Source: a virus
Lineage: Duplodnaviria > Caudoviricetes
Length of the DNA: 64,000 nt
Virus record (IMG/VR): IMGVR_UViG_3300032254_000001
Span: 32,001-96,000 of that record
Direction: 5' to 3' (one strand)
Of the stretch, positions 7,203 to 61,340 are shown in pieces. Positions within the stretch are counted from its first letter, which is position 1. Each line of letters begins with the position of its first letter. The notes under the pieces are model-generated. The model was not told where the DNA came from. It saw only the letters and a program-made list of their open reading frames with translations, and did not search any database. Both the position numbers and the translations under genes were made by a program.

Positions 7203-7289
7203 TGGTATTCCGGACGGGAATCGAACCCGCTAATTGCTTTCGCAAAGCCTGAGTGAAAGTCAGGTGACCGACCGTTAGTCATCCGGAAT
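7203..7289 (-). tRNA. tRNA-Glu(TTC) with long variable arm
   Basis: Loop CT-TTC-AC; V-arm TTGC-GAAA-GCAA. Confidence 0.85.
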
Positions 7290-7295
7290 ATAATT

Positions 7296-7382
7296 TGGAG
7301 CCAAGAGTGAGATTCGAACTCACGACGGGGTTACCCCTCCGGCTTACAAAACCGGTGCAATCGTCCACTATGCGACCTTGGC
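7296..7382 (-). tRNA. tRNA-Thr(TGT) with long variable arm
   Basis: Loop TT-TGT-AA; V-arm GGGG-TAA-CCCC. Confidence 0.85.
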
Positions 7383-8944: not shown

Positions 8945-9031
8945 TGGTGGGGCGACAGGGATTCGAACCCTGGATGTCCTTTCGGATCGTCTGATTAAAA
9001 GTCAGGTGCCATACCGCTTGGCGACCGCCCC
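8945..9031 (-). tRNA. tRNA-Lys(TTT) with long variable arm
   Basis: Loop CT-TTT-AA; V-arm TCC-GAAA-GGA. Confidence 0.85.
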
Positions 9032-11346: not shown

Positions 11347-11438
11347 TGGTACCTCTACCAGGATTCGAACCTGGACTACTCGCTAATCTGGCGATACGAC
11401 CGTATAAAAGTCGTGTGCTACCGTTACACTATAGAGGT
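11347..11438 (-). tRNA. tRNA-Ile(TAT) with long variable arm
   Basis: Loop TT-TAT-AC; V-arm TCGC..GCGA. Confidence 0.8.
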
Positions 11439-11528: not shown

Positions 11529-11614
11529 TGGTAGCGAGAGTAGGAGTCGAACCTACGAAACCTTTCGGTATAGGGTTATGAGCCCCATCACTTTATCCAC
11601 TTGTATATCTCGCG
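11529..11614 (-). tRNA. initiator-type tRNA-fMet(CAT) with long variable arm
   Basis: C1:T72 mismatch, three G-C pairs in the anticodon stem, V-arm ACC-GAAA-GGT. Confidence 0.75.
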
Positions 11615-11958: not shown

Positions 11959-12046
11959 TGGTACTACCGGTTGGAGTCGAACCAACTGTAAGGAATTACC
12001 CTTGCACGGTTATCAGCCGTGTGCTTAACCGTTCAGCGTCGGTAGT
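11959..12046 (-). tRNA. tRNA-Ile(GAT) with long variable arm
   Basis: Loop CT-GAT-AA; V-arm AAGGG-TAAT-TCCTT. Confidence 0.85.
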
Positions 12047-12541: not shown

Positions 12542-12679
12542 TTGAGGAAAGTGGAACCACTTTTTATGGCGGCTGTGCTACCGTTACACTACATGCCAGC
12601 ATTCCTGGTACATGGGAGGAGTCGAACCTCCACTTGCTGCTTGGCTTATTTTAGAAGGAAGTAAATCCCATAGCCTCAA
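12542..12679 (-). ncRNA. Y-RNA-like (YrlA-type) RNA with a circularly permuted tRNA module
   Basis: GAGG-CTA-stem-TCCTTCT scaffold enclosing a T-arm, loop-closed acceptor stem and D-arm. Confidence 0.65.
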
Positions 12680-12880
12680 ATTTTTGTTACTTTTTCGATT
12701 CATCTATTAGGTGCTTAATAGCCCTTAGTGAACGTAAGTCTACTTCCGCTTGCTTGCGAAAGATTGGATTTTTTTGTGTTTTTAAAACTTCAACCAGTAA
12801 GTTAATTTTCTGGTTTAAACGTTCTATTGTTATATTAATGTACTCATGTTAATACCCTCTATGGTAAGTGTATTTATGAT

Positions 12881-12966
12881 TGGTGCTGCCTGTAGGATTC
12901 GAACCTACTCATCCAGTGGAATCGGGTTTACAATCCGACGTGACTCTCCATCTTCACCGCGACAGC
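12881..12966 (-). tRNA. tRNA-Tyr(GTA)
   Basis: Loop TT-GTA-AA, V-arm. Confidence 0.85.
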
Positions 12967-12978
12967 GTAATTTTAATT

Positions 12979-13065
12979 TGGTGGATCTAGTTGGATTCGA
13001 ACCAACAATGCCAGAAGCGCCGAGTTTACAGTCCGGTGGTAGCAACCAGTTCTACCATTAGATCC
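12979..13065 (-). tRNA. tRNA-Tyr(GTA)
   Basis: Loop CT-GTA-AA, V-arm. Confidence 0.85.
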
Positions 13066-13071
13066 ATTGTT

Positions 13072-13157
13072 TGGAAGCGACGGTGAGGGTCGAACTCACA
13101 ATGCCCGAAAGCGCCAGATTCAAAGTCTGGTGGGGTTACCAATTTTCCTACATCGCT
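13072..13157 (-). tRNA. tRNA-Gln(TTG) with long variable arm
   Basis: Loop CT-TTG-AA; V-arm GCT-TTCG-GGC. Confidence 0.85.
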
Positions 13158-13167
13158 ATAATTTATT

Positions 13168-13242
13168 TGGAGACTCTACTCGGTTTCGAACCGAGGCTTG
13201 AAGATTTGCAATCAACCGCACTACCAATTATGCTACAGAGTC
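13168..13242 (-). tRNA. tRNA-Cys(GCA)
   Basis: Loop TT-GCA-AA, U73. Confidence 0.8.
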
Positions 13243-13250
13243 AAAGTGTT

Positions 13251-13322
13251 TGGCACCGCGACAAGGTGTTGATCCCTGCAAGCCGGGGGTTGGAATCCCA
13301 GCACCTCCCCGGAGGCCACGGC
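13251..13322 (-). tRNA. atypical selC-like tRNA, anticodon probably CCA (Trp)
   Basis: D hairpin GCCTC-CGGG-GAGGT, 8-nt anticodon loop ATTCCAAC, G73, CCA. Confidence 0.5.
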
Positions 13323-13335
13323 ATTAAAAAGGTAC

Positions 13336-13444
13336 CTTGTAAGCTCTCGTTAGACTGATTAACTACCGCGTGTAGTCGCGTTCTAACAATAGGCGTGTAC
13401 TGACGCCTCGTTTTACTTGTGATGCATTGCATCCTTCTTACAAG
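13336..13444 (-). ncRNA. multibranch structured RNA candidate
   Basis: Closing stem CTTGTAAG/CTTACAAG with three internal hairpins. Confidence 0.5.
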
Positions 13445-13518
13445 CAGCCCTGTACAGGATTCGAACCTGTGTTTCCAGCCTTCACGGGCCGGTGTCCTAA
13501 CCACTAGACGAACGGGGC
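13444..13518 (-). tRNA. Glu/Asp-body tRNA with 8-nt anticodon loop (CCGTGAAG)
   Basis: Intact D and T arms, no CCA. Confidence 0.5.
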
Positions 13519-13669
13519 ATAAAAATCGTGGAACTGATCATATTACAAAACAGTACCTAAACACTGTTACAATGCAATAAGGGTAGCGCAAAGTTCCGTA
13601 GCCTATATTCTACCATTTTCTGACTTCACTGCATATGCATAATTAGGTTGCACATACATCACATCAAAT

Positions 13670-13932
13670 TGGCTGTGACAGTTGGGTTCGAACCAACGTT
13701 ACCGGCTCAAATCGCTTATGCTGGGTGCCGGTGTTTTGCCGCCTACTTGCTTTCATTGTACACTTTCTTGATAAGTTTCTTTTAGCTTTTGCACGTCTGG
13801 CCTGCTCAATCCTTTCAAAAGAGTCTGGTAGTTTTTATAGCCTAAGCGATTGTTACCATTGGTGTTACTAACTAAGGTACTTCTCAACATTACTAATGCA
13901 GTCTTACTAACTTTCGTCTAAACTACATCACA
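13670..13932 (-). ncRNA. tRNA gene with a large D-loop insertion carrying a 45-codon ORF and a 20-nt anticodon loop
   Basis: Acceptor TGTGATG/TGTCACA-G-CCA, D-stem GTTT/AAAC, CCGGC/GCCGG, T-arm. Confidence 0.7.
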
Positions 13933-14007
13933 ATAAATTCTTGCAGTTTCTCCGACTCGATCCGTTAACTAGTATGGATGTCCGTACAATGCCTCGTAGA
14001 AGTAAAT

Positions 14008-14081
14008 TGGTGGACACGCGGAGAGTCGAACTCCATCTTCCTCATTGCAAAAGAGGTGCTTTCCCGTTAAGCTAACGGCCC
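14008..14081 (-). tRNA. tRNA-Ala(TGC)
   Basis: G3:U70, loop TT-TGC-AA; imperfect acceptor. Confidence 0.75.
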
Positions 14082-14161
14082 ATGATTTGGAGGAAAGGGT
14101 TGGCTTTTCACCAACTATAAACGGTAACAGAGAACGTTGTGTTACCTCACTCGCCATTGTT

Positions 14162-14235
14162 TGGTGGAGATTCGGAGAATCGAACTCCGATCAAAGCGTT
14201 GCAAACGCCCCGTAATCCCGTTATACTAAACCCCC
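14162..14235 (-). tRNA. tRNA-Ala(TGC)
   Basis: G3:U70, loop TT-TGC-AA. Confidence 0.9.
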
Positions 14236-14256
14236 AATTGTTTGGCTTTATAAATT

Positions 14257-14331
14257 TGGCTCCGGTAGCTGGAATCGAACCAACCTGCCACAGATTAACA
14301 GTCTGCTGCCACACCTTGCGGCCCTACCGGA
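14257..14331 (-). tRNA. tRNA-Asn(GTT)
   Basis: Loop CT-GTT-AA, G73. Confidence 0.9.
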
Positions 14332-14332
14332 A

Positions 14333-14776
14333 TTATCCGTATTGCGGTAATCCCCTAGCCTTGCGACCTTTACCTGTGTTTTTTGCGCCAAATGTTTCTT
14401 GTTGACTATCACAGTTTGGACATACCATTTGAAAATTGTCTGGATGATCGTTTGATGCATTGCCGTCAATGTGATCACACCATAGTGAAATAGGTTTATT
14501 GTTCCAGCTATCGATGCCACAGATATTACATTTATTGCCATCCCGCTTAATAACAAATTCTCTGATCAGCTTTCTCGGAGTTTTTAATCCTAAGTCACAT
14601 CCTGCTAACCAATCCTGATATCGTTTCTCAAATAACTTTTGCGATTTATCTTTTCTATAATTTATATTACACACTGTACTACAAAATTTATGATTATAAC
14701 TATAACCTTTGAACTTAAATTCTGTACTACAATGACCGCATATAAAAGTTTCGTCTTTTTTCCTTTTGATGTTCAT
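14333..14776 (-). CDS. HNH endonuclease
   Basis: CNICG, DHIDGNASND...VCPNC. Confidence 0.85.
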   Translation of the reverse strand: MNIKRKKDETFICGHCSTEFKFKGYSYNHKFCSTVCNINYRKDKSQKLFEKRYQDWLAGCDLGLKTPRKLIREFVIKRDGNKCNICGIDSWNNKPISLWCDHIDGNASNDHPDNFQMVCPNCDSQQETFGAKNTGKGRKARGLPQYG

Positions 14777-14954
14777 ATGGTAGAGCCTTTTAAAATAGTT
14801 ATATTTTATTTATCACTCTACCACCTGAACAGAAATTTTAAACTACTTTATCACGACATTGATCGCCACCACAGCAACCCTGTTTCGTTCAATTTCGTTA
14901 AGGTAGCATTACACAACTTCACCGGTTAAGATCCGCCTTCATGTAACCCTTAAT

Positions 14955-15040
14955 TGGCTCCGAGAGTAGGGATCGAACCTACGTTGTTTACACAAGCCTA
15001 TGGTTAACAGCCACGCGCATTACCACTCTGCCACCTCGGA
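14955..15040 (-). tRNA. tRNA-Asn(GTT) with long variable arm
   Basis: Loop CT-GTT-AA; V-arm TTGT-GTAA-ACAA. Confidence 0.85.
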
Positions 15041-15048
15041 ATTATAAA

Positions 15049-15189
15049 TGCTCTTACTGGGGCAGGCTGGGATTCTAACCCACAACGACTTGACTATTGT
15101 CGCGTTTGCATGTAACGCACCGAGGGTCAACTCGTCAAGTTCCACGCCTTTACATACCCGCGGTATGCTTCTCTGCCCCAGTAAGAACA
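15049..15189 (-). ncRNA. tRNA-like RNA with a 17-bp terminal helix
   Basis: Terminal inverted repeat, T-like arm TGGG-TTAGAAT-CCCA, CTTGAC/GTCAAG arm with two hairpins. Confidence 0.55.
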
Positions 15190-15199
15190 CTTTTAAAAT

Positions 15200-15273
15200 T
15201 GGAGCCTGGTAAGGGACTCGAACCCTCATCTGTACGTTGGCAACGTACGGTTCTACCGTTGAACTAACCAGGC
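15200..15273 (-). tRNA. tRNA-Gly(GCC)
   Basis: Canonical cloverleaf, U73. Confidence 0.95.
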
Positions 15274-15274
15274 G

Positions 15275-15952
15275 TTATTCTTGTTTTAATACTCTACCTT
15301 TTTTAAAACCTTCTGGTATAGTATCATTCTTTTTGATCTTTTTATTAATTGTTCCGTCTGTTATCCACATCGTTCCGTACTGTGAATTGCCACTGCCTTG
15401 CTGACACTTAGATGAATTTGCACCTATAGCATCTTTTGTTTCTTGTGTATGCTTCTTATTTTTAAATGTACCGTGACCGTAGCGTTCAAGTATAGTTGCT
15501 TTAATCTTTTGTCCTGCTTGCTTGAACGATTCAGGCGTTCTATTTTTACCTGACATTTTACCAATGATACTCTTGAAATCATCACCGTACTTTTCTAGTA
15601 ATATACTATCTGTTATTTCTCGTGCCCTGCGATTCTTTTGAATACGTGCCTCTTCGTTAGAGTTTATATAATCCCATCCACCAAAGCCACCAACCTTAAG
15701 ATTGTATGTATTTTCTTCTGCAATAAAGTCTTTATTAACTATTTCGGCTTCTTTATTAAACATATCTTCTGGATTGTCAAATACATGTAAAATTTCTTTG
15801 CTAAAATTTTCAACACCGTGTTTATTAATTGCATAGTTAAGGTACTTTCCTGAACCTAAATAACCATCGTTTAAGTTACTGGTCTTATGCGCGCCTATAT
15901 AGACCTTGCCTGTAACTTTATTTGACGTCTTATAAATTGTATAGTAAACCAT
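15275..15952 (-). CDS. GIY-YIG (Seg-like) homing endonuclease
   Basis: YTIYKTSNKVTGKVYIGAH..YLGSG, E and YNL motifs; NUMOD3-like tail. Confidence 0.9.
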   Translation of the reverse strand: MVYYTIYKTSNKVTGKVYIGAHKTSNLNDGYLGSGKYLNYAINKHGVENFSKEILHVFDNPEDMFNKEAEIVNKDFIAEENTYNLKVGGFGGWDYINSNEEARIQKNRRAREITDSILLEKYGDDFKSIIGKMSGKNRTPESFKQAGQKIKATILERYGHGTFKNKKHTQETKDAIGANSSKCQQGSGNSQYGTMWITDGTINKKIKKNDTIPEGFKKGRVLKQE

Positions 15953-15991
15953 ACTATTATTTATGACGTTCGAGTCCATATCGAACTCTAA

Positions 15992-16072
15992 TGAGCGGGT
16001 GACGAGAATCGAACTCGCCATGCTTTCGCGTCTGGTTGGAAACCAGGTTCCACACCTTGTGGACTCACCCGC
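15992..16072 (-). tRNA. tRNA-Gly(TCC) with extended variable arm, CCA not encoded
   Basis: Loop TT-TCC-AA; V-arm GC-GAAA-GC. Confidence 0.8.
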
Positions 16073-16082
16073 ATAAATTAAA

Positions 16083-16194
16083 TTTGTAGCCTTGCCCATT
16101 ACTCGCAAATGTCACACTGGTCCTCAGAATTGAACTGCCACGGGCGGGTATATTCTGCCCCGCCCTGCAAACCATTGCTAACCAGCACTACAAA
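16083..16194 (-). ncRNA. tRNA-like domain nested in an outer stem
   Basis: TTTGTAG/CTACAAA enclosing CTGGT/ACCAG, D-like, 7-bp and T-like arms. Confidence 0.45.
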
Positions 16195-16197
16195 ATT

Positions 16198-16278
16198 TGG
16201 CGTCCAGCGTCGGTATTGCACCGCACTCCTACTCCAGTAACGTTATCTCTGGAGCAACACGTCTCATGTTGACTGAAC
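16198..16278 (-). ncRNA. tRNA-like RNA with 6-bp D-stem and 11-nt anticodon loop
   Basis: Acceptor plus G-CCA, CAACAT/GTGTTG, CTCCAG/CTGGAG. Confidence 0.5.
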
Positions 16279-16287
16279 ATATAAAGT

Positions 16288-16360
16288 AGAGGAAAGTGAA
16301 AACACTATTCGGTTTGATTAAAAGTCAATTTTTAGAAGGAAGTGAACTTTCATAGCCTCT
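16288..16360 (-). ncRNA. Y-RNA-like RNA displaying a tRNA-Lys anticodon stem-loop
   Basis: Same scaffold as 12542-12679; insert TTGA-CTTTTAA-TCAA. Confidence 0.6.
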
Positions 16361-16365
16361 TTATT

Positions 16366-16384
16366 TGGTGCCCTGTTACAGGGC
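16366..16384 (-). ncRNA. tRNA acceptor microhelix with A-CCA end
   Basis: GCCCTG-TAA-CAGGGC-A-CCA. Confidence 0.4.
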
Positions 16385-16390
16385 GATATT

Positions 16391-16465
16391 TGGCGACGTA
16401 GAAGGGAATCGAACCCTCATTGTACTGATAGACAATCAGCTGCATTACCAATCTGCCACTACGCC
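16391..16465 (-). tRNA. tRNA-Asp(GTC)
   Basis: Loop TT-GTC-TA, G73. Confidence 0.85.
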
Positions 16466-16740
16466 GTAATTCTTTTCTTACATCCCCAAGTATCTGTTTG
16501 TCTATGACAGTTAGGGCAAAGCAATCTTAAGTTAGATGGAAATGCATTTTCTACATCTCCGTCTATATGATCTAAATCTAATACAATTGGCTTATTTTGC
16601 CATTCGTTTATTCCGCATATTGCACAGAACTCACCGTCTCTTTCCACGACATACTTTCCTGCTTCTATCAGTGGTACTTGTACAGTTTTCCATTGATAAG
16701 CTTGCTGACATGTGTTGTTGCAAGGCGCTTATTACTCCTT
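16459..16740 (-). pseudogene. HNH endonuclease remnant
   Basis: CAICG, DHIDGD..N..LLCPNCH; upstream CNNTCQ zinc motif follows in-frame stops and has no start codon. Confidence 0.7.
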
Positions 16741-16783
16741 TTGGAACCCTTCGCATTATATCGCAGTTGATACTATTTAAAAT

Positions 16784-16859
16784 TGGTCTCTCTGCGAGGA
16801 TTTGAACCTCGGACGCTCCGCCCCAAACGGACCATGTTACCAGACTACACTACAGAGAG
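16784..16859 (-). tRNA. tRNA-Pro(TGG)
   Basis: C1-G72, loop TT-TGG-GG. Confidence 0.9.
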
Positions 16860-16870
16860 ATTAAACTAAT

Positions 16871-16954
16871 GAGGAAATTGATATTACTAAACCAGTTGCC
16901 CTAAGGGCATCTTTGGAGTCGAACCAAAATAGAAGGAAGCAATATCATAGCCTC
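16871..16954 (-). ncRNA. Y-RNA-like RNA with a T-arm and acceptor-like hairpin
   Basis: Same scaffold; TTTGG-TTCGACT-CCAAA plus TGCCC-TTA-GGGCA. Confidence 0.6.
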
Positions 16955-17675: not shown

Positions 17676-17704
17676 ATTATAATGTAGCTAACTTACTGTG
17701 TCAA
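17676..17704 (-). promoter_or_regulatory. sigma70 promoter P1 of the tRNA operon
   Basis: TTGACA-17-TATAAT. Confidence 0.9.
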
Positions 17705-17767
17705 CCTCTATTTTAAATTAATTTAAAAATAGTGGCTAACGCCGTGTTGTTTATTAAGTATGTAGCT

Positions 17768-17796
17768 ATTATATGACAGCTAATATACTGTGTCAA
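17768..17796 (-). promoter_or_regulatory. sigma70 promoter P2 (tandem duplicate)
   Basis: TTGACA-17-TATAAT with the same downstream AGCTACATACTTAAT. Confidence 0.9.
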
Positions 17797-23749: not shown

Positions 23750-24237
23750 ATTAATTTCAGTAACTTTAGTTTCGCTAGAGTTGAAGCTGGATCTGTGTGT
23801 AGTATGCCTACGCCGCCGTGTTCTATCCATAGTTTAATGTTGCGGTCGTAATCATCTATTAACAAAGCTCCAGGATTCTTTTCAAGGAATTTGTATTTGT
23901 TCTTACCGCCTTCGATAGTGTTAACAACAATCGAATCATCCACGTATTCATGGAACCATCTACGTTTGTCATCACACGAAGTGGCAAGCTCCTTTGTTGG
24001 CAATGGTGCACCAGTAAGTACCTCAACAACTTCCGGACCGTGAATATCTAAAACTAGCTTAAACATTTCATAAGCATTTGGAAGTAGCTCCAGAGTATAA
24101 TAAAACTCTGGAACTGTGTCGATCAGGTGCCAAAACTTATCTGTGGTACGATCCCAATAATGCATACCGCATTGTTCAACAATACCTTTTTCAAAGTTTG
24201 CCATTACACCATCTAAATCAAAATATATCTTTTTCAT
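23746..24237 (-). CDS. 5'(3')-deoxyribonucleotidase (HAD/NT5C)
   Basis: IYFDLDGVMANF, LLIDD...WIEHGG. Confidence 0.8.
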   Translation of the reverse strand: MKKIYFDLDGVMANFEKGIVEQCGMHYWDRTTDKFWHLIDTVPEFYYTLELLPNAYEMFKLVLDIHGPEVVEVLTGAPLPTKELATSCDDKRRWFHEYVDDSIVVNTIEGGKNKYKFLEKNPGALLIDDYDRNIKLWIEHGGVGILHTDPASTLAKLKLLKLI

Positions 24238-25214
24238 TATACCACCGGGTTAATTAATACGTCAGTGTAAACACCAACTAACCATTCGTTCCAGCTGTTA
24301 ACATCTACCCTTGCAGGCAAGTCACTTACTAGTACCAACTCGTCAATTTCTTCAACAAGTGATTCAAGTACATCTGAAACTTCTGTTTTGTAATCACAGT
24401 CACCGTTCTTAACATTACGCAAGAACTCAGTTTCTGCAAGAGGGTACGCAAATGAGCCGTTCTTTAAGATCGAACGCAATTGGTAACCTGCACGTAACGC
24501 ATGACTAACTGCCTTCCAGTCAACGCCTTCATTCTTTTCTGCAAGTAACGCACGAGCACCGTAACCAGCTAATGCCTTCTGAACACGATCTAAAACATAT
24601 TCAGTAGTATTAGTATCTTGGTACTTCTTGCCGTTAACTTCGTAGAACCTGTTAACTACACCAGTCTTCTCTTGCGCCAGTTCGATCTTGTTAGCGTACT
24701 CGTTTTCAGGAAGCTTATCCCAAACGTCACTTAAAGGGTATTCGCCTTTAGGCATACCTTCTAAGAATTCAATTGAGTCACGCATTGCTGAAATACGAGA
24801 ACCTTTAAGGCCGTACTTTGCTGCCTGTCGCTTAACGTAACCCATGTACGCTTTCAAGTTCTTAGTGTAGAACAGTTCGCGAATGCTAACAAGGTGTTCC
24901 CAAATCCAACCGTACTCTGGATCAATTTCGACTGCAACCAAATCAGGGTTAACATGCAACATATCTAATGCAACCGTTTCACCTTTGGTAGCAAGCTTAA
25001 TGAACTCGGCCAGAGAGTACCAATCGTCATCAATGTCACCAGCACCGTTCTTGGAATTATCATCACCAGTTGAATGGCTGATGTTTTTCGCAGCGGTGCC
25101 CAAAAGCAACTCGTCCAATTCGGGCAAGTAGATACCTTTGTAGTCCATGTCTGAGTTTGGGGTGTTAAGGCCGTACATGTGAGAGCCAAAAACCATTCGT
25201 ACAATCTTTTTCAT
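24237..25214 (-). CDS. phage nucleotidyltransferase (T4 NrdC.11-like)
   Basis: FGSHMYGLNTPNSDMDYKGI, DWKAVSHALR. Confidence 0.8.
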   Translation of the reverse strand: MKKIVRMVFGSHMYGLNTPNSDMDYKGIYLPELDELLLGTAAKNISHSTGDDNSKNGAGDIDDDWYSLAEFIKLATKGETVALDMLHVNPDLVAVEIDPEYGWIWEHLVSIRELFYTKNLKAYMGYVKRQAAKYGLKGSRISAMRDSIEFLEGMPKGEYPLSDVWDKLPENEYANKIELAQEKTGVVNRFYEVNGKKYQDTNTTEYVLDRVQKALAGYGARALLAEKNEGVDWKAVSHALRAGYQLRSILKNGSFAYPLAETEFLRNVKNGDCDYKTEVSDVLESLVEEIDELVLVSDLPARVDVNSWNEWLVGVYTDVLINPVV

Positions 25215-25250
25215 TATGTGTTCCTATTGTTAATAATGCTAGTATAGCAT

Positions 25251-25694
25251 TTAGAATGGTGGGTTGTCAAGTACTTTAAATTTCTTATCTTTCAGCACGT
25301 TAAAGGTTTGTTCGTGCTCTAGTGCTAGTTGTGCTTCATTTGCTACTTTTATAAGGAAATCCCTGATATCTGTGCGGTAATTTAGGATAAAGTTCATGTA
25401 TGGCTTCCAGCCACCACATTCACAGTCTTCTGCAAAGTGCATGCCGTTTATCTCAATCATCCAAAGATCACTTTCCGTTTCATTTATGACTACATTATCA
25501 TCGGTTTCAGCACGTTCTCTGAAATCTGCTGCCATTAGCCTATCTTCGTCGTCATTGTCAAAGTAATAAGAATTGATGCATACATGCTCACGACCGCAGT
25601 TACATTCTATTACAGCACTACCAGAGCGTGTAAAACACTCTTGAAAAGCACGATCTAAGTCTAGGTCTAAGATGTTCATAAGTCTGTAATCCAT
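25251..25694 (-). CDS. hypothetical protein
   Basis: ORF in operon. Confidence 0.6.
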   Translation of the reverse strand: MDYRLMNILDLDLDRAFQECFTRSGSAVIECNCGREHVCINSYYFDNDDEDRLMAADFRERAETDDNVVINETESDLWMIEINGMHFAEDCECGGWKPYMNFILNYRTDIRDFLIKVANEAQLALEHEQTFNVLKDKKFKVLDNPPF

Positions 25695-25903
25695 TTCCCA
25701 CAGTGTGGGCAGTCGGGTGGAACTTCTCTATCAAGCTCGTCTCTTAGGTCTTCTAATTCGTCCTTGTACTGACAGTGGTGATCACGTCCGTCGTATTCGG
25801 TTGGCATATCTAGTACACGTTTACCAAGTTCAAGTAATGCTCCTTGGTCGCCTGCTATGCCCCAACTCTGTAATTCACTAAATGTAAAATGCTTGTAATC
25901 CAT
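25676..25903 (-). CDS. hypothetical protein
   Basis: C-terminal CPHC. Confidence 0.55.
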   Translation of the reverse strand: MDYKHFTFSELQSWGIAGDQGALLELGKRVLDMPTEYDGRDHHCQYKDELEDLRDELDREVPPDCPHCGKWITDL

Positions 25904-25921
25904 GGTGATCCTTTATCACCG

Positions 25922-25948
25922 AAAAAGCCCACACGAGGTGGGCTTTTT
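25922..25948. terminator. bidirectional terminator
   Basis: AAAAAGCCCAC-ACGAG-GTGGGCTTTTT. Confidence 0.85.
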
Positions 25949-25967
25949 CTATTGCTGGTAAGTTAAA

Positions 25968-27572
25968 TTACTTCTTAACTTTCATATCCAGTGCAAGGTC
26001 TTTAGCAGCCTTTACACCTAACATTTCGATAATGCTCATTGCTGCATTACCACCGTTAGTACCACTGGTACCCATTTGTACTTCAGCTACCCATTTCTGC
26101 TTACCAAATTCACGAGCGTAGTTCTCGTTAACTTTTACATAAGCATCAAGTTTCTGTTGTAACGCGCCATCAGCTTCGATAACTTGCTTCTTGTATGCTG
26201 CATCACCTTCACCACGTAAAGTTTGTTCCTTCTTGTAGTGAACCGCTGCTAGCTGCTTTTCAAGTGCTTCAAGTTTACCTTGTGCTGCAACATCAACTAA
26301 CTGCTCAGCTTTGATAACTGCAACTTCAGCAACTCGCTGTGCAACAACAACCGCTTTCTGCTTGATAACTTCTTCTTCGTACTGTGCCTTCTTAACGTTA
26401 GCAAGACCTTGCTGCTCTGCTGTAATCGCATCCTGCTTCGCACGTTCTGCGTTAGCTTTAGAAGTGATGATAGCCATAGTAGCTTCACGCTTGTCACTGA
26501 TCTGTTTCAAAGTTTTATCTTCGTAACCCCAGTCAACCATGTTAAAGCCAGACAGTGTGATACCGTACTGCTTCAGGTCGTTTGCAACATGTACTGGCAC
26601 GCCATCTTTTGTTGCGATGATTGGAATGATCTTTTTAGTTTTCTTAACATTGTGGCACTCTTTCTTAAGTTCCTTAGTTAAGTTTTCACCTAAACAAAAT
26701 TCCATACCAGCTTCAACAGTAGTGATTTCACTCTGTACAGTTGAGAACTTACCGTTGTTAAGCTGTGTCTTAGCACGTTGCGTATATGTACCACGATCCG
26801 TATAAGATTCTTCAGAGCTTACAAGACCAGCTGTGTGGTTCATAATTTCTTCAGTTGTATTCTTAACAATCTTGTGTGCTACACCAGCATTGCTTCGGAA
26901 TTCCTTATGGATCTTAGCCATATCAACTTCAGTTGATGGTAGGCGGAAACGTGCAATACCAAATACTGTACCAGTACCACCATCTTGGTAACGTACTGCG
27001 ATACCGTTCTGGTCAAGTGTTGCGCCTTCTGCGTTTTGTGACTTATCAAAGTCGAAAGTAATGATATCGTTGTAAACTTCTACGTTACCAAACCATTGCA
27101 TGTATAAACCTGGGTCAAACTTGTATGACAGTGTTCCGTTTGGAAACTGGATAACAGTTCTGTGACCTGCGTCATTAATGCCAATTAGTAATGGTGATAC
27201 CAATAGTGTAAGTACTAGGACTGCTATTGCTGTCACTGATTTCCAATTTAAGTTCATGTTATATCCTCTAGGTTGTGATGGTGGTTGAGTTGAGTCATTA
27301 TCGCCTGCGCCACCGCCGCCTGCATTAATGTTTTCTTTCTTTGAAAAAAGGTTATTAAAAGTAGCTCCGATAAATGCCGCTGCTTTTGCTATATGATCTG
27401 CAATAACATCTTCCCACTGTATATCGCCGAAGCGATCTTTGTATTGATCAAAGTAGGCTTTGTTTTTGTTGTCATTGTCGTCTATGTTAGAACCATAACG
27501 GTTCTGATAGTCGTTTGTTTCGTTACGAATTTTGCGTAGCAATTCTTCGTATTCATCTGTGCCGCGGCTCAT
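25968..27572 (-). CDS. SPFH/band-7 membrane protein with coiled coil
   Basis: TM helix, SPFH pattern, AERAKQDAITAEQQG coiled coil; possible internal start at ~27258. Confidence 0.75.
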   Translation of the reverse strand: MSRGTDEYEELLRKIRNETNDYQNRYGSNIDDNDNKNKAYFDQYKDRFGDIQWEDVIADHIAKAAAFIGATFNNLFSKKENINAGGGGAGDNDSTQPPSQPRGYNMNLNWKSVTAIAVLVLTLLVSPLLIGINDAGHRTVIQFPNGTLSYKFDPGLYMQWFGNVEVYNDIITFDFDKSQNAEGATLDQNGIAVRYQDGGTGTVFGIARFRLPSTEVDMAKIHKEFRSNAGVAHKIVKNTTEEIMNHTAGLVSSEESYTDRGTYTQRAKTQLNNGKFSTVQSEITTVEAGMEFCLGENLTKELKKECHNVKKTKKIIPIIATKDGVPVHVANDLKQYGITLSGFNMVDWGYEDKTLKQISDKREATMAIITSKANAERAKQDAITAEQQGLANVKKAQYEEEVIKQKAVVVAQRVAEVAVIKAEQLVDVAAQGKLEALEKQLAAVHYKKEQTLRGEGDAAYKKQVIEADGALQQKLDAYVKVNENYAREFGKQKWVAEVQMGTSGTNGGNAAMSIIEMLGVKAAKDLALDMKVKK

Positions 27573-28550: not shown

Positions 28551-29329
28551 TAAGCTTCTACAGCTTCTAGTGACTGTTCAACGTAGCTACGATCGCCTGT
28601 AAAGATAGGTATTTCTCTATCGATTCTAATTTCACGATTTGGAGCAGTTTCCAATTCACGACGTGTTACACAAGTGCCGCGCTTCTTCCACGTTTCGATA
28701 TCGTTCCAATTAACACCGTGCGTAAGCATAAGCATATCTTGCACTTGACTAACATTTTTCCCATGTAGTTCTTTGTGGGAGAAGTAGTGCTGTGCCAACA
28801 TGTTAATGCTGTTACGGGTTGCGTCCTGCTGGCGCCATACGAAGTAGTTAGTAACTTCTTCTTTTGGCAAGTTCCAAACACGCGCATCAAATAGAGCAGG
28901 AGCTGCTTCTTTAGTTGCGTCAGTTCCAACAAGGTGCGCAAAGGTTTGGTTGAAGTAAGCCGTTGCCATACTTGCTGCAACAGATACAATCTTCTGTACG
29001 TTGTTACCAAACCACTGATCAGTTGTTAACGTAGACCAATCGTTTAATAGGATTGAAATCTCGTCAGACTGGGTGTAGCCAAGAACAGCATTCTGGATAT
29101 TCGCTACCAGTTTCTCAGTAGTAATGGCCATAGTTTGGTTCATTACATCGCTGAATGGATCCTGTTCCAGACTAGGATCAACATGCTTTAAGCATTTGGT
29201 CCAAGTGTGAAATGCCTTTCCATCAAGGCGGATTATTACTGGAGTTCGTTTCGTTAGGGTAGTTTTAGATACATGTTCGTATTCCTTCATTCGTGTTCCT
29301 AACGAATCTTTACTGTACTTTTGGCTCAT
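28550..29329 (-). CDS. thg1: tRNA-His guanylyltransferase (Thg1/TLP)
   Basis: RLDGKAFH, QSDEIS, FDAR, WRQQDATRNSI. Confidence 0.92.
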   Translation of the reverse strand: MSQKYSKDSLGTRMKEYEHVSKTTLTKRTPVIIRLDGKAFHTWTKCLKHVDPSLEQDPFSDVMNQTMAITTEKLVANIQNAVLGYTQSDEISILLNDWSTLTTDQWFGNNVQKIVSVAASMATAYFNQTFAHLVGTDATKEAAPALFDARVWNLPKEEVTNYFVWRQQDATRNSINMLAQHYFSHKELHGKNVSQVQDMLMLTHGVNWNDIETWKKRGTCVTRRELETAPNREIRIDREIPIFTGDRSYVEQSLEAVEA

Positions 29330-61266: not shown

Positions 61267-61340
61267 TGGCGTCTGTGAAGGGGTTCGAACCCTTGTCCTG
61301 GGATTTAGAGTCCCGTGCTAAACCGCTCAGCTACACAGAC
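61267..61340 (-). tRNA. amber suppressor tRNA (CTA)
   Basis: Canonical cloverleaf, loop CT-CTA-AA, G73, CCA. Confidence 0.88.

What the first reader, a model, noticed from the sequence alone, without database searches (positions are those of the whole stretch)
12542..16954. Three Y-RNA-like RNAs share one scaffold but carry different tRNA-mimic modules
Seen: 12542-12679, 16288-16360 and 16871-16954 share GAGG/CCTC, a CTA / (C/A)TTT internal loop, a ~10-bp helix whose sequence differs but pairing is kept (TGGGATTTACT/AGTGGTTCCA; TGAAAGTTCACT/AGTGTTTTCA; TGATATTGCT/AGTAATATCA), and an invariant TCCTTCT. Copy 1 inserts a circularly permuted tRNA (T-arm, loop-closed acceptor with internal A-CCA, D-arm). 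Copy 3 inserts a T-arm plus acceptor hairpin. Copy 2 inserts a tRNA-Lys(UUU) anticodon stem-loop (TTGA-CTTTTAA-TCAA). Known: bacterial YrlA Y RNAs join a Ro60-binding end-stem to a permuted tRNA-like domain and occur in some phages. Inference: Y RNA paralogs, with the Lys stem-loop a possible decoy for tRNA-Lys nucleases.
Basis: partly seen in the sequence, partly recalled or inferred. Interest (0 to 1): 0.78.

Follow-up and report, generated by a model that had tools for sequence, protein, structure and literature searches.

The report
Phage Y-RNA-like RNAs with tRNA-mimic payloads
Three small RNAs inside a giant phage's tRNA operon share one conserved "handle" but carry different tRNA look-alike inserts; they belong to a large uncatalogued RNA family that travels with an uncharacterised Ro60-shaped protein, so this looks like an undescribed counterpart of the Ro60/Y-RNA particle.

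Summary
All three share GG-CUA-U, a helix of 8-10 bp, UCCUUCU-A, a payload, the returning helix strand, (A/C)UUU and CC.

- **Family:** a covariance model of this handle finds hundreds of copies in large phages. 94.6% of cells are paired, against about 48% with partners slid.
- **Partner gene:** in 80 loci chosen only by a protein, 326 model hits were found. All 300 listed are on the gene's strand, directly flanking a roughly 700-aa protein (phrog_33734, no Pfam family).
- **This phage:** it encodes that protein about 18 kb downstream of copy 1, with two more handle RNAs in its leader.
- **Payloads:** a circularly permuted tRNA body (copy 1), a T-arm with a hairpin (copy 3) and a Lys-type anticodon stem-loop (copy 2). 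Each type recurs in other phages.
- **Not canonical YrlA/Ro60:** Rfam YrlA scores 18 bits against a threshold of 69, and the genome has no TROVE or RtcB.

Function is inferred, not shown. This scan has noted the same RNA-protein pair on at least eight other genomes. I found no paper describing it.

The parts
12544..12677 (-). Copy 1: handle RNA with a circularly permuted tRNA-like payload (134 nt)
   Evidence: Regex and covariance model R1 (24.7 bits). YrlA model positions 30-81 align to the payload. ARAGORN calls a cloverleaf after re-permutation at -ps80/-ps90.
12652..12677 (-). Copy 1 handle, 5' half: GAGG clamp, CUA loop, helix strand, UCCUUCUA
   Evidence: conserved columns.
12615..12631 (-). 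Copy 1 T-arm (5-bp stem, UUCGACU loop)
12592..12614 (-). Copy 1 acceptor-like stem closed by a loop
12575..12589 (-). Copy 1 D-arm (GUGU / AACGGUA / GCAC), preceded by U8-A9-like UA
12544..12561 (-). Copy 1 handle, 3' half: returning helix strand, CUUU loop, CCUC clamp
16289..16359 (-). Copy 2: handle RNA with a Lys(UUU)-type anticodon stem-loop payload (71 nt)
   Evidence: R1 57.3 bits, E 4.9e-11; fold.
16314..16328 (-). Copy 2 payload hairpin UUGA-CUUUUAA-UCAA
   Evidence: The same loop with covarying stems occurs in other phages.
16871..16954 (-). Copy 3: handle RNA with a T-arm plus hairpin (minihelix-like) payload (84 nt)
   Evidence: R1 56.5 bits. Fold -25.9 kcal/mol, z -3.0.
16912..16928 (-). 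Copy 3 T-arm (UUUGG / UUCGACU / CCAAA)
16897..16909 (-). Copy 3 GC-rich hairpin after the T-arm, in the position of an acceptor stem
17676..17796 (-). Two perfect TTGACA-17-TATAAT promoters (17768-17796 and 17676-17704) heading the tRNA operon that contains copies 3, 2 and 1
   Evidence: 12 of 12 matches each, and no minus-strand terminator-like site between 17800 and 12200.

Best explanation
The three elements are stable small RNAs of a large family that I did not find in Rfam 15. Each has a constant handle and an exchangeable payload.

The handle is a GG/CC clamp, a CUA / UUU-type internal loop, an 8-10 bp helix of free sequence, an invariant single-stranded UCCUUCU and a closing A.

I infer that the handle is the binding site for a conserved protein of about 700 aa. 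Its helical part is best matched by Ro60 structures, and it carries a TerD beta-sandwich where Ro60 has vWA. This phage encodes the protein at genome 24,152-26,224 (minus strand), about 18 kb downstream of copy 1 (about 22-23 kb from copies 2 and 3), with two more handle RNAs in its leader.

Copies 1-3 would be made as part of the tRNA operon transcript and released by tRNA-processing enzymes acting on the flanking tRNAs. This is inferred from the position of the promoters, the absence of terminator-like sites and the tRNA-like spacing.

By analogy with Ro60 and its Y RNAs, the handle would dock the RNA on the protein. The payload would present tRNA-like surfaces: a permuted tRNA body, a T-arm minihelix, or a Lys-type anticodon stem-loop. 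These would act as adaptors or decoys for tRNA-binding enzymes, or as gates for a protein that handles damaged or misfolded tRNAs during infection.

Shown: the family, its covariation, the genomic pairing with the protein and the recurrence of the payload types. Inferred: binding, processing and function.
For: Handle and covariation:
- An alignment of 25 copies has 91.7% of cells paired, with covariation score 0.851 against 0.217 in shuffles (0 of 500). The two outer clamp pairs, which were not used to pick the copies, are paired in 23 and 24 of 25 with 14 and 12 double changes.
- In 150 model hits from protein-selected loci, 94.6% of cells are paired against 34-54% when partners are slid.
- UCCUUCU, GGCUA and CC are each kept in 141 or more of 150.

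Pairing with the protein:
- In 80 viral loci chosen only by the protein, R1 finds 326 hits. All 300 listed are on the gene's strand, and 79 of the 80 loci appear among them.
- A strict regex proxy gives 280 hits on the gene's strand, 0 on the other and 0 inside the gene. 147 of 156 upstream hits lie within 700 nt of the start, and 122 of 124 downstream hits within 1.5 kb of the end.
- In this genome, a TTGACA-N17-TATAAT promoter is followed by copies 4 and 5, then the ribosome-binding site and ATG of the homologue.
- On a bacterial chromosome, two handles lie directly upstream of the gene.

Protein:
- The AF2 model has pLDDT 83.
- Searched alone against 48,161 chains, the N-terminal domain has Ro60 at ranks 1 and 2.
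- Many arginines are invariant.

Payloads:
- 16 of 18 large-insert members are called tRNAs by ARAGORN once the permutation is undone, with the handle lying as an 'intron' in the anticodon loop.
- Anticodon-stem-loop-like hairpins occur in 16 of 150 payloads, against 2.1 +/- 1.4 in shuffles.

Context:
- 35 of 60 protein loci have tRNA genes within 4 kb, all on the same strand.
- The phage also encodes the tRNA-repair enzymes Rnl1 and Thg1.
- Parallel from the literature: bacteria with Ro60 have one tRNA-like Y RNA plus hairpin Y RNAs with a pyrimidine-rich loop (PMC4201824).
Against: - No binding, expression or RNA-end data exist.
- The Ro60 likeness is by fold only. There is no TROVE signal by sequence.
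- One AlphaFold DB relative is auto-named 'ZorC EH domain-containing', so the domain may be a different nucleic-acid binder. Pfam EH_Signature found nothing in this genome.
- Copies 1-3 lie about 18-23 kb from the protein gene, not beside it.
- Copy 1 scores only 24.7 bits with R1, and R1 misses copy 4.
- About three quarters of family payloads are short, AU-rich and show no tRNA feature. tRNA mimicry is therefore a property of a subset.
- Alignments made with the model lean towards its structure.
Confidence: 0.7

Rival explanations
1. Canonical Y RNAs (YrlA/YrlB type) that work with a true Ro60/Rsr, here supplied by the host.
For: Copy 1 has the YrlA arrangement of T-arm, closed acceptor and D-arm, and gives the only non-tRNA Rfam alignment, to YrlA positions 30-81. 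Some phages do carry Ro60 with Y-like RNAs (PMC4201824, PMC12135203, PMC7824862).
Against: RF02553 scores 18.1 bits against a gathering score of 69, and none of the Ro-binding stem is matched. The handle consensus lacks the CGAA-type motif. The complete genome has no TROVE and no RtcB. Across 80 loci the RNA travels with the TerD protein, not with a TROVE gene.
Confidence: 0.05
2. The handle is mainly a cis-acting leader element, such as an autoregulatory operator or an anti-Shine-Dalgarno switch that uses UCCUUCU. The copies in the tRNA operon would then be by-products or titrating sites.
For: Tandem copies end 10-40 nt before the ribosome-binding site and ATG of the protein gene in this genome and many others. 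UCCUUCU can pair with purine-rich ribosome-binding sites. Handles also precede a Thg1 gene in L111.
Against: About as many copies lie downstream of the gene (46 of 80 loci) or between tRNA genes with no ORF after them (copies 1-3). Payloads are elaborate and recurrent. UCCUUCU is invariant although ribosome-binding sites differ. Feedback regulation through the leader copies is compatible with the main explanation.
Confidence: 0.1
3. Guide-like array: the constant handle loads a protein and the variable loop of about 20-40 nt base-pairs with target RNAs or DNAs.
For: Arrays of a constant handle with variable inserts lie next to one protein gene, with a median of 3 copies and up to 9 per locus. 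Most inserts are unstructured and AU-rich.
Against: No targets were sought here. A subset of payloads are folded tRNA parts rather than linear guides. Inserts are short and of low complexity.
Confidence: 0.06
4. Decaying tRNA genes or tRNA-derived repeats without a function of their own.
For: They lie in a tRNA array that also holds homing-endonuclease-like ORFs. Copy 1 is only a weak tRNA after re-permutation.
Against: The invariant handle with compensatory changes is conserved across very distant phages and a bacterium. Copies occur strictly on one strand and are linked to one gene.
Confidence: 0.02

Closest known systems
YrlA, the tRNA-mimicking Y RNA of bacteria and phages, bound by Ro60/Rsr (Rfam RF02553; Chen et al. 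2014, PMC4201824)
   Same: It is a two-module RNA. The stem formed by the 5' and 3' ends is the presumed protein site, and it replaces the anticodon arm of a tRNA-like body made of T-arm, loop-closed acceptor and D-arm. It is encoded beside the partner protein gene, often with tRNAs, and is accompanied by simpler hairpin paralogues.
   Different: The handle has a different sequence and internal loop. It scores 18 bits against 69 on the YrlA model. The partner is not a TROVE protein by sequence and carries TerD instead of vWA. Many copies occur per locus, and payloads also include anticodon-stem-loop mimics and minihelices.
Hairpin Y RNAs with a pyrimidine-rich loop (YrlB, Yrn2; PMC4201824) and Yrl1/Yrl2 of Thermus phage phiLo Ro60 (PMC12135203)
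   Same: These are short stem-bulge-stem RNAs with a pyrimidine-rich unpaired stretch, encoded next to the protein gene in a phage.
   Different: The UCCUUCU motif lies on the 5' side, directly after the helix. There is no CGAA motif, and no evidence of PNPase tethering.
Ro60/Rsr (TROVE plus vWA ring; PDB 1yvp, 2nvo, 9nen, 9l5y)
Other tRNA mimics: tmRNA, and viral 3' tRNA-like structures
   Same: They use T-arm and acceptor mimicry to engage tRNA enzymes.
   Different: None has this handle, a permuted topology with a closed acceptor, or a dedicated partner gene of this family.

Membership tests
YrlA (Rfam RF02553) | Score at or above the curated gathering score (69 bits) of the covariance model | tested here: not met
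   Best match is 18.1 bits, E 4 (E 0.18 on 221 nt), model positions 30-81 only, on copy 1. Copies 2 and 3 give nothing.
YrlA (Rfam RF02553) | tRNA-like domain: T-arm, loop-closed acceptor stem and D-arm, with the end-stem in place of the anticodon arm | tested here: met
   Met for copy 1 only: and at a relaxed threshold. 16 of 18 homologous large-insert members are called at the default threshold. Copies 2 and 3 carry only parts of a tRNA.
YrlA / Y RNA | Conserved Ro60-binding helix (5' strand / CGAA-type motif, bulged helix) | tested here: not met
   The handle consensus is GGCUA-U-helix ... (A/C)UU(U)-CC with UCCUUCU. No YrlA model positions 1-29 or 82-114 are aligned.
YrlA / Y RNA | Encoded near, and bound by, a TROVE-domain Ro60 | tested here: not met
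   PF05731 finds nothing in the complete 344-kb genome, while its controls are found. Binding itself cannot be tested with these tools.
Ro60 / TROVE proteins (for the partner protein) | TROVE domain detectable by sequence profile | tested here: not met
   No Pfam TROVE hit in 25 family members at E up to 1. A profile search of PDB sequences finds no Ro60.
Ro60 / TROVE proteins (for the partner protein) | HEAT-repeat ring fold | tested here: inconclusive
Ro60 / TROVE proteins (for the partner protein) | C-terminal vWA domain with MIDAS | tested here: not met
Handle-plus-payload RNA family defined here (model R1) | Match to the covariance model of the handle | tested here: met
   Copy 2 scores 57.3 bits, copy 3 scores 56.5, copy 5 scores 55.7 and copy 1 scores 24.7 (E 0.006). 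Copy 4 was recognised only by eye. Copies 2, 3 and 5 were in the seed alignment.
Handle-plus-payload RNA family defined here (model R1) | Same genome and same strand as a phrog_33734 (helical plus TerD) gene | tested here: met
   The homologue lies at G000:C1:24152-26224 (minus strand), E 1.9e-135. Copies 4 and 5 are in its leader. Copies 1-3 lie about 18-23 kb upstream on the same strand, not adjacent to it.
tRNA (RF00005) | Whole-molecule match in the linear order of a tRNA | tested here: not met
   Only the T-arm of copy 1 aligns (12.5 bits). ARAGORN calls none of the three on the native sequence.

The most novel reading that the evidence does not exclude
The family may be a modular tRNA-part display system. 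A Ro-shaped TerD protein would carry interchangeable RNA payloads: a whole tRNA body, an acceptor/T minihelix, or anticodon stem-loops of particular tRNAs such as Lys(UUU) and Pro(UGG). The phage would use these as decoys or adaptors against host tRNA-targeting defences such as PrrC/RloC-type anticodon nucleases, and would express them together with its own tRNAs and tRNA-repair enzymes.
Probability: 0.17. Interest if true: 0.9.

Novelty: new variant of a known kind. Interest (0 to 1): 0.8.

Why it matters
Ro60 with its Y RNAs is one of the few RNA-protein quality-control particles shared by animals, bacteria and phages. How the tRNA-like module of bacterial Y RNAs works is still an open question.

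This finding points to a second, much more copy-rich system of the same design. It has a different handle and a partner protein with no Pfam family, and it is spread over many large phages and at least some bacteria.

Its payloads form a natural series, from nothing through an anticodon loop and a minihelix to a whole tRNA body. That series makes the question "what does tRNA mimicry do on such a particle?" directly testable.

In this phage the RNAs sit inside the tRNA operon, beside the tRNA-repair genes Rnl1 and Thg1. This links the system to the contest between phages and host tRNA nucleases.

Tried and rejected
- Rfam at gathering thresholds gave only tRNAs. At E up to 10 it gave only the weak YrlA match and noise.
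- Megablast of the 4.9-kb region against 50,697 phage records found no match.
- TROVE, RtcB, Rnl2, the CCA-adding/PolyA_pol family and EH_Signature were not found in the phage genome.
- Pfam, PHROGs and PDB sequence searches of the partner protein gave only phrog_33734 (function unknown) and a sub-threshold TerD hit. None gave TROVE.
- Sequencing runs: two DNA holders from microbial mat metagenomes were listed and no RNA holder, so expression could not be examined and read laying was not used.
- ARAGORN on re-permuted copy 1 found nothing at default settings. It found a cloverleaf only at -ps80/-ps90.
- R1 does not detect copy 4, whose helix is interrupted by an extra hairpin.
- Single-sequence folding of copies 1 and 2 is not better than shuffles (z about -1). 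The support for them comes from comparison with relatives, not from folding energy.
- The domain-only structure search did not separate Ro60 clearly from generic helical repeats.
- Full-text literature searches for a Ro60-like/TerD protein with Y-like RNAs, or for a phage tRNA-cluster RNA motif, found no description.
- Complex prediction was not used because it takes no RNA.

Full report
**Setting.** The window is bases 32,001-96,000 of a complete 344,483-bp uncultured phage genome with terminal repeats. The DNA is held in microbial-mat metagenomes. The region holds about 38 tRNA genes, all on the minus strand. Two perfect TTGACA-17-TATAAT promoters on the minus strand lie at 17796-17768 and 17704-17676. 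No minus-strand terminator-like site lies between them and 12200. Everything in the finding therefore lies within one tRNA operon and has to be read on the minus strand.

**The observation.** In RNA sense the three elements are copy 1 (12544-12677), copy 2 (16289-16359) and copy 3 (16871-16954). All three share these parts, in order:
- a GAGG/CCUC clamp;
- a CUA / (C/A)UUU internal loop;
- a helix of 10 pairs whose sequence differs while pairing is kept (one bulged U in copy 1, a 2-nt bulge in copy 2);
- the single-stranded word UCCUUCUA directly after the 5' strand;
- an A directly before the 3' strand.

The 5' composite motif is expected 0.00 times in shuffles of the window. On the whole genome the full pattern occurs only here and at a tandem pair at genome 26,248-26,466 on the minus strand, outside the window.

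- Copy 1 has a T-arm, a loop-closed acceptor-like stem, a U8-A9-like UA and a D-arm. These are the parts that Rfam's YrlA model aligns (model positions 30-81). When the RNA is joined head to tail to undo the permutation, ARAGORN draws a cloverleaf with the handle in the anticodon loop, though only at a relaxed threshold.
- Copy 3 has a T-arm and a GC-rich hairpin.
- Copy 2 has UUGA-CUUUUAA-UCAA. It shares an 11-mer with the anticodon arm of the phage's own tRNA-Lys(UUU).

One detail is doubtful: the 'A-CCA' in copy 1 lies inside the paired stem.

**A large family.** A scan of viral contigs with the handle's 5' motif returned many chance hits, but also dozens of loci with several copies each. 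An alignment of 25 copies shows the same architecture with strong compensatory change. 91.7% of cells are paired and the covariation score is 0.851, against 0.217 in shuffles. The two clamp pairs that I had not used for selection are paired in 23 and 24 of 25, with 14 and 12 double changes. The covariance model R1 built from this alignment scores copies 2 and 3 at 57 bits and copy 1 at 24.7 bits. It finds nothing else in the genome apart from copy 5.

**The partner gene.** Many copies stand in tandem just before a ribosome-binding site and ATG. The gene is nearly always the same: a protein of 690-750 aa in phrog_33734, with no Pfam family and only a sub-threshold TerD hit. This phage has it too. 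Genome 24,152-26,224 on the minus strand matches with E 1.9e-135, and the order there is promoter, copy 4, copy 5, ribosome-binding site, ATG.

To remove selection bias I fetched 80 viral loci by the protein alone and searched them with R1.
- There were 326 hits at E below 0.01. All 300 listed are on the gene's strand, and 79 of the 80 loci appear among them. The hits cluster directly before and after the gene.
- A strict regex proxy gives 280 hits on the gene's strand, none on the other strand and none inside the gene. 147 of 156 upstream hits lie within 700 nt of the start, and 122 of 124 downstream hits within 1.5 kb of the end. The median is 3 copies per locus and the maximum 9.
- In 150 of these hits the handle is 94.6% paired, against 34-54% when partners are slid. 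UCCUUCU, GGCUA and CC are each kept in 141 or more of 150.
- The pair also occurs on a bacterial chromosome, an Aliikangiella genome, with two handles directly upstream of the gene.
- 35 of 60 protein loci have tRNA genes within 4 kb, all on the same strand.

**The protein.** An AlphaFold2 model from 25 homologues has pLDDT 83 and pTM 0.79.
- No sequence method sees TROVE.
- One AlphaFold DB relative is auto-named after the ZorC EH domain, a DNA-binding domain (PMC11946911). Pfam EH_Signature finds nothing in this genome.

I therefore call the protein Ro60-shaped. This is probable but not proven. What is firm is that it has TerD where Ro60 has vWA.

**Payloads across the family.** Most inserts are short (median 30 nt) and AU-rich. 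A subset repeats the three types seen in this window.
- Permuted tRNA bodies of 85-95 nt occur in many phages. Their T-loop, D-arm and U8-A9 are conserved. 16 of 18 are called tRNAs by ARAGORN at default settings once the permutation is undone, with the handle as a 44-63-nt 'intron' in the anticodon loop.
- T-arm plus hairpin inserts of about 40-50 nt also recur.
- Hairpins with a 5-bp stem and a 7-nt loop of anticodon-loop type occur in 16 of 150 payloads, against 2.1 +/- 1.4 in shuffles. They include CUUUUAA (Lys) with different, compensating stems and UUUGGGA (Pro-like).

**Interpretation.** The design parallels Ro60 with its Y RNAs. The RNA genes lie next to the protein gene. A constant stem with an internal loop is the likely protein site. 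One member carries a tRNA body in the YrlA topology, and others are simple hairpins with a pyrimidine-rich unpaired stretch, as described for YrlA and YrlB (PMC4201824).

Membership of the known family fails on every testable criterion except topology. The YrlA model gives 18 of the required 69 bits, the Ro-binding motif is absent, there is no TROVE gene, and the protein has no vWA domain.

My reading is a separate or very distant counterpart of the Ro60/Y-RNA particle. In this phage part of the RNA set has moved into the tRNA operon. There it would be co-transcribed with the tRNAs and cut out by the enzymes that process the neighbouring tRNAs. Copy 3, for example, sits 4 nt after one tRNA-Pro and 11 nt before the next.

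The phage also encodes T4-type RNA ligase 1 and a Thg1-like enzyme. This fits a role in tRNA damage control or in countering tRNA-directed host nucleases. That role, the binding and the processing are all inferences.

**Rivals.**
- A purely cis-regulatory leader explains the copies before the gene. It does not explain those after it or those between tRNAs.
- Canonical Y RNAs served by a host Ro60 cannot be excluded, but nothing tested here supports them.
- A guide-like reading of the short payloads was not tested.
- Decayed tRNA genes are contradicted by the covariation and the gene linkage.

**Earlier notes of this scan.** After reaching this reading I found that the scan had recorded the same RNA-protein pairing on at least eight other genomes, with the same comparison to Ro60 and Y RNAs. 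It had also recorded the Lys-type loop of copy 2 together with the adjacent CCA microhelix on this genome. These are unchecked AI notes. Full-text searches found no paper that describes the system.

Noticed in passing
window 16366-16384 (-): Between tRNA-Asp and copy 2 lies a 6-bp GC-rich hairpin with a UAA loop, followed directly by ACCA. It looks like an acceptor-only microhelix with a CCA end. Fold: -10.3 kcal/mol, z -3.95, 0 of 200 shuffles as good.
   Followed up: partly
window 8945-9031, 7203-7289, 7296-7382, 11347-11438, 11529-11614, 11959-12046, 13072-13157, 14955-15040 (all -): At least eight tRNAs of 86-92 nt carry a long extra arm, as class II tRNAs do, but have anticodons of class I amino acids (Lys, Glu, Thr, Ile, Met, Gln, Asn). 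I read tRNA-Lys(UUU)-2 directly: it has a Leu/Ser/Tyr-style D-loop and a 17-nt variable arm. Their identity and charging are unclear.
   Followed up: partly
window 15050-15190, 13243-13445, 16085-16280, 15995-16072 (all -): Further gene-free stretches in the array look structured but are unassigned. One (15050-15190) has a 13-bp closing stem and a T-arm-like hairpin. One (15995-16072) matches tRNA-Sec below threshold (37.8 bits against 47). None matches the handle model.
   Followed up: no
window 61267-61340 (-): ARAGORN reports a tRNA with anticodon CUA (labelled 'Pyl'), an amber suppressor. The same kind of tRNA sits near the handle/protein locus in several related phages (L125, L132, L171). 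TAG may be read through or reassigned late in infection.
   Followed up: no
window 28865-29296 (-); genome 8945-9367 (-), outside the window: The phage encodes a Thg1-like 3'-5' polymerase (96 bits) and a T4 Rnl1-type RNA ligase (71 bits), both tRNA-repair enzymes. In another phage (L111) two handle RNAs stand directly upstream of its Thg1 gene.
   Followed up: partly
window 16462-16647 (-), 15278-15958 (-), 14336-14776 (-): Small ORFs interspersed in the tRNA array look like homing endonucleases or zinc-ribbon proteins. Hits: HNH at 22.4 bits (above cut-off), SegE-type GIY-YIG at 21.9 bits (below cut-off), and zinc ribbon (weak).
   Followed up: partly
L201:8281-8610 (Aliikangiella chromosome): In the one bacterial locus inspected, the gene after the helical/TerD protein hits RNase_T (a DEDD exonuclease). 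This recalls the link between Ro60 and exoribonucleases. It is a single case.
   Followed up: no
L136, L154, L156, L158, L161, L164, L165, L166, L167: In one clade of related phages, tRNA-Lys(UUU) is the last tRNA gene called before the upstream handle array, ending 1 to about 145 nt before the first handle hit.
   Followed up: no
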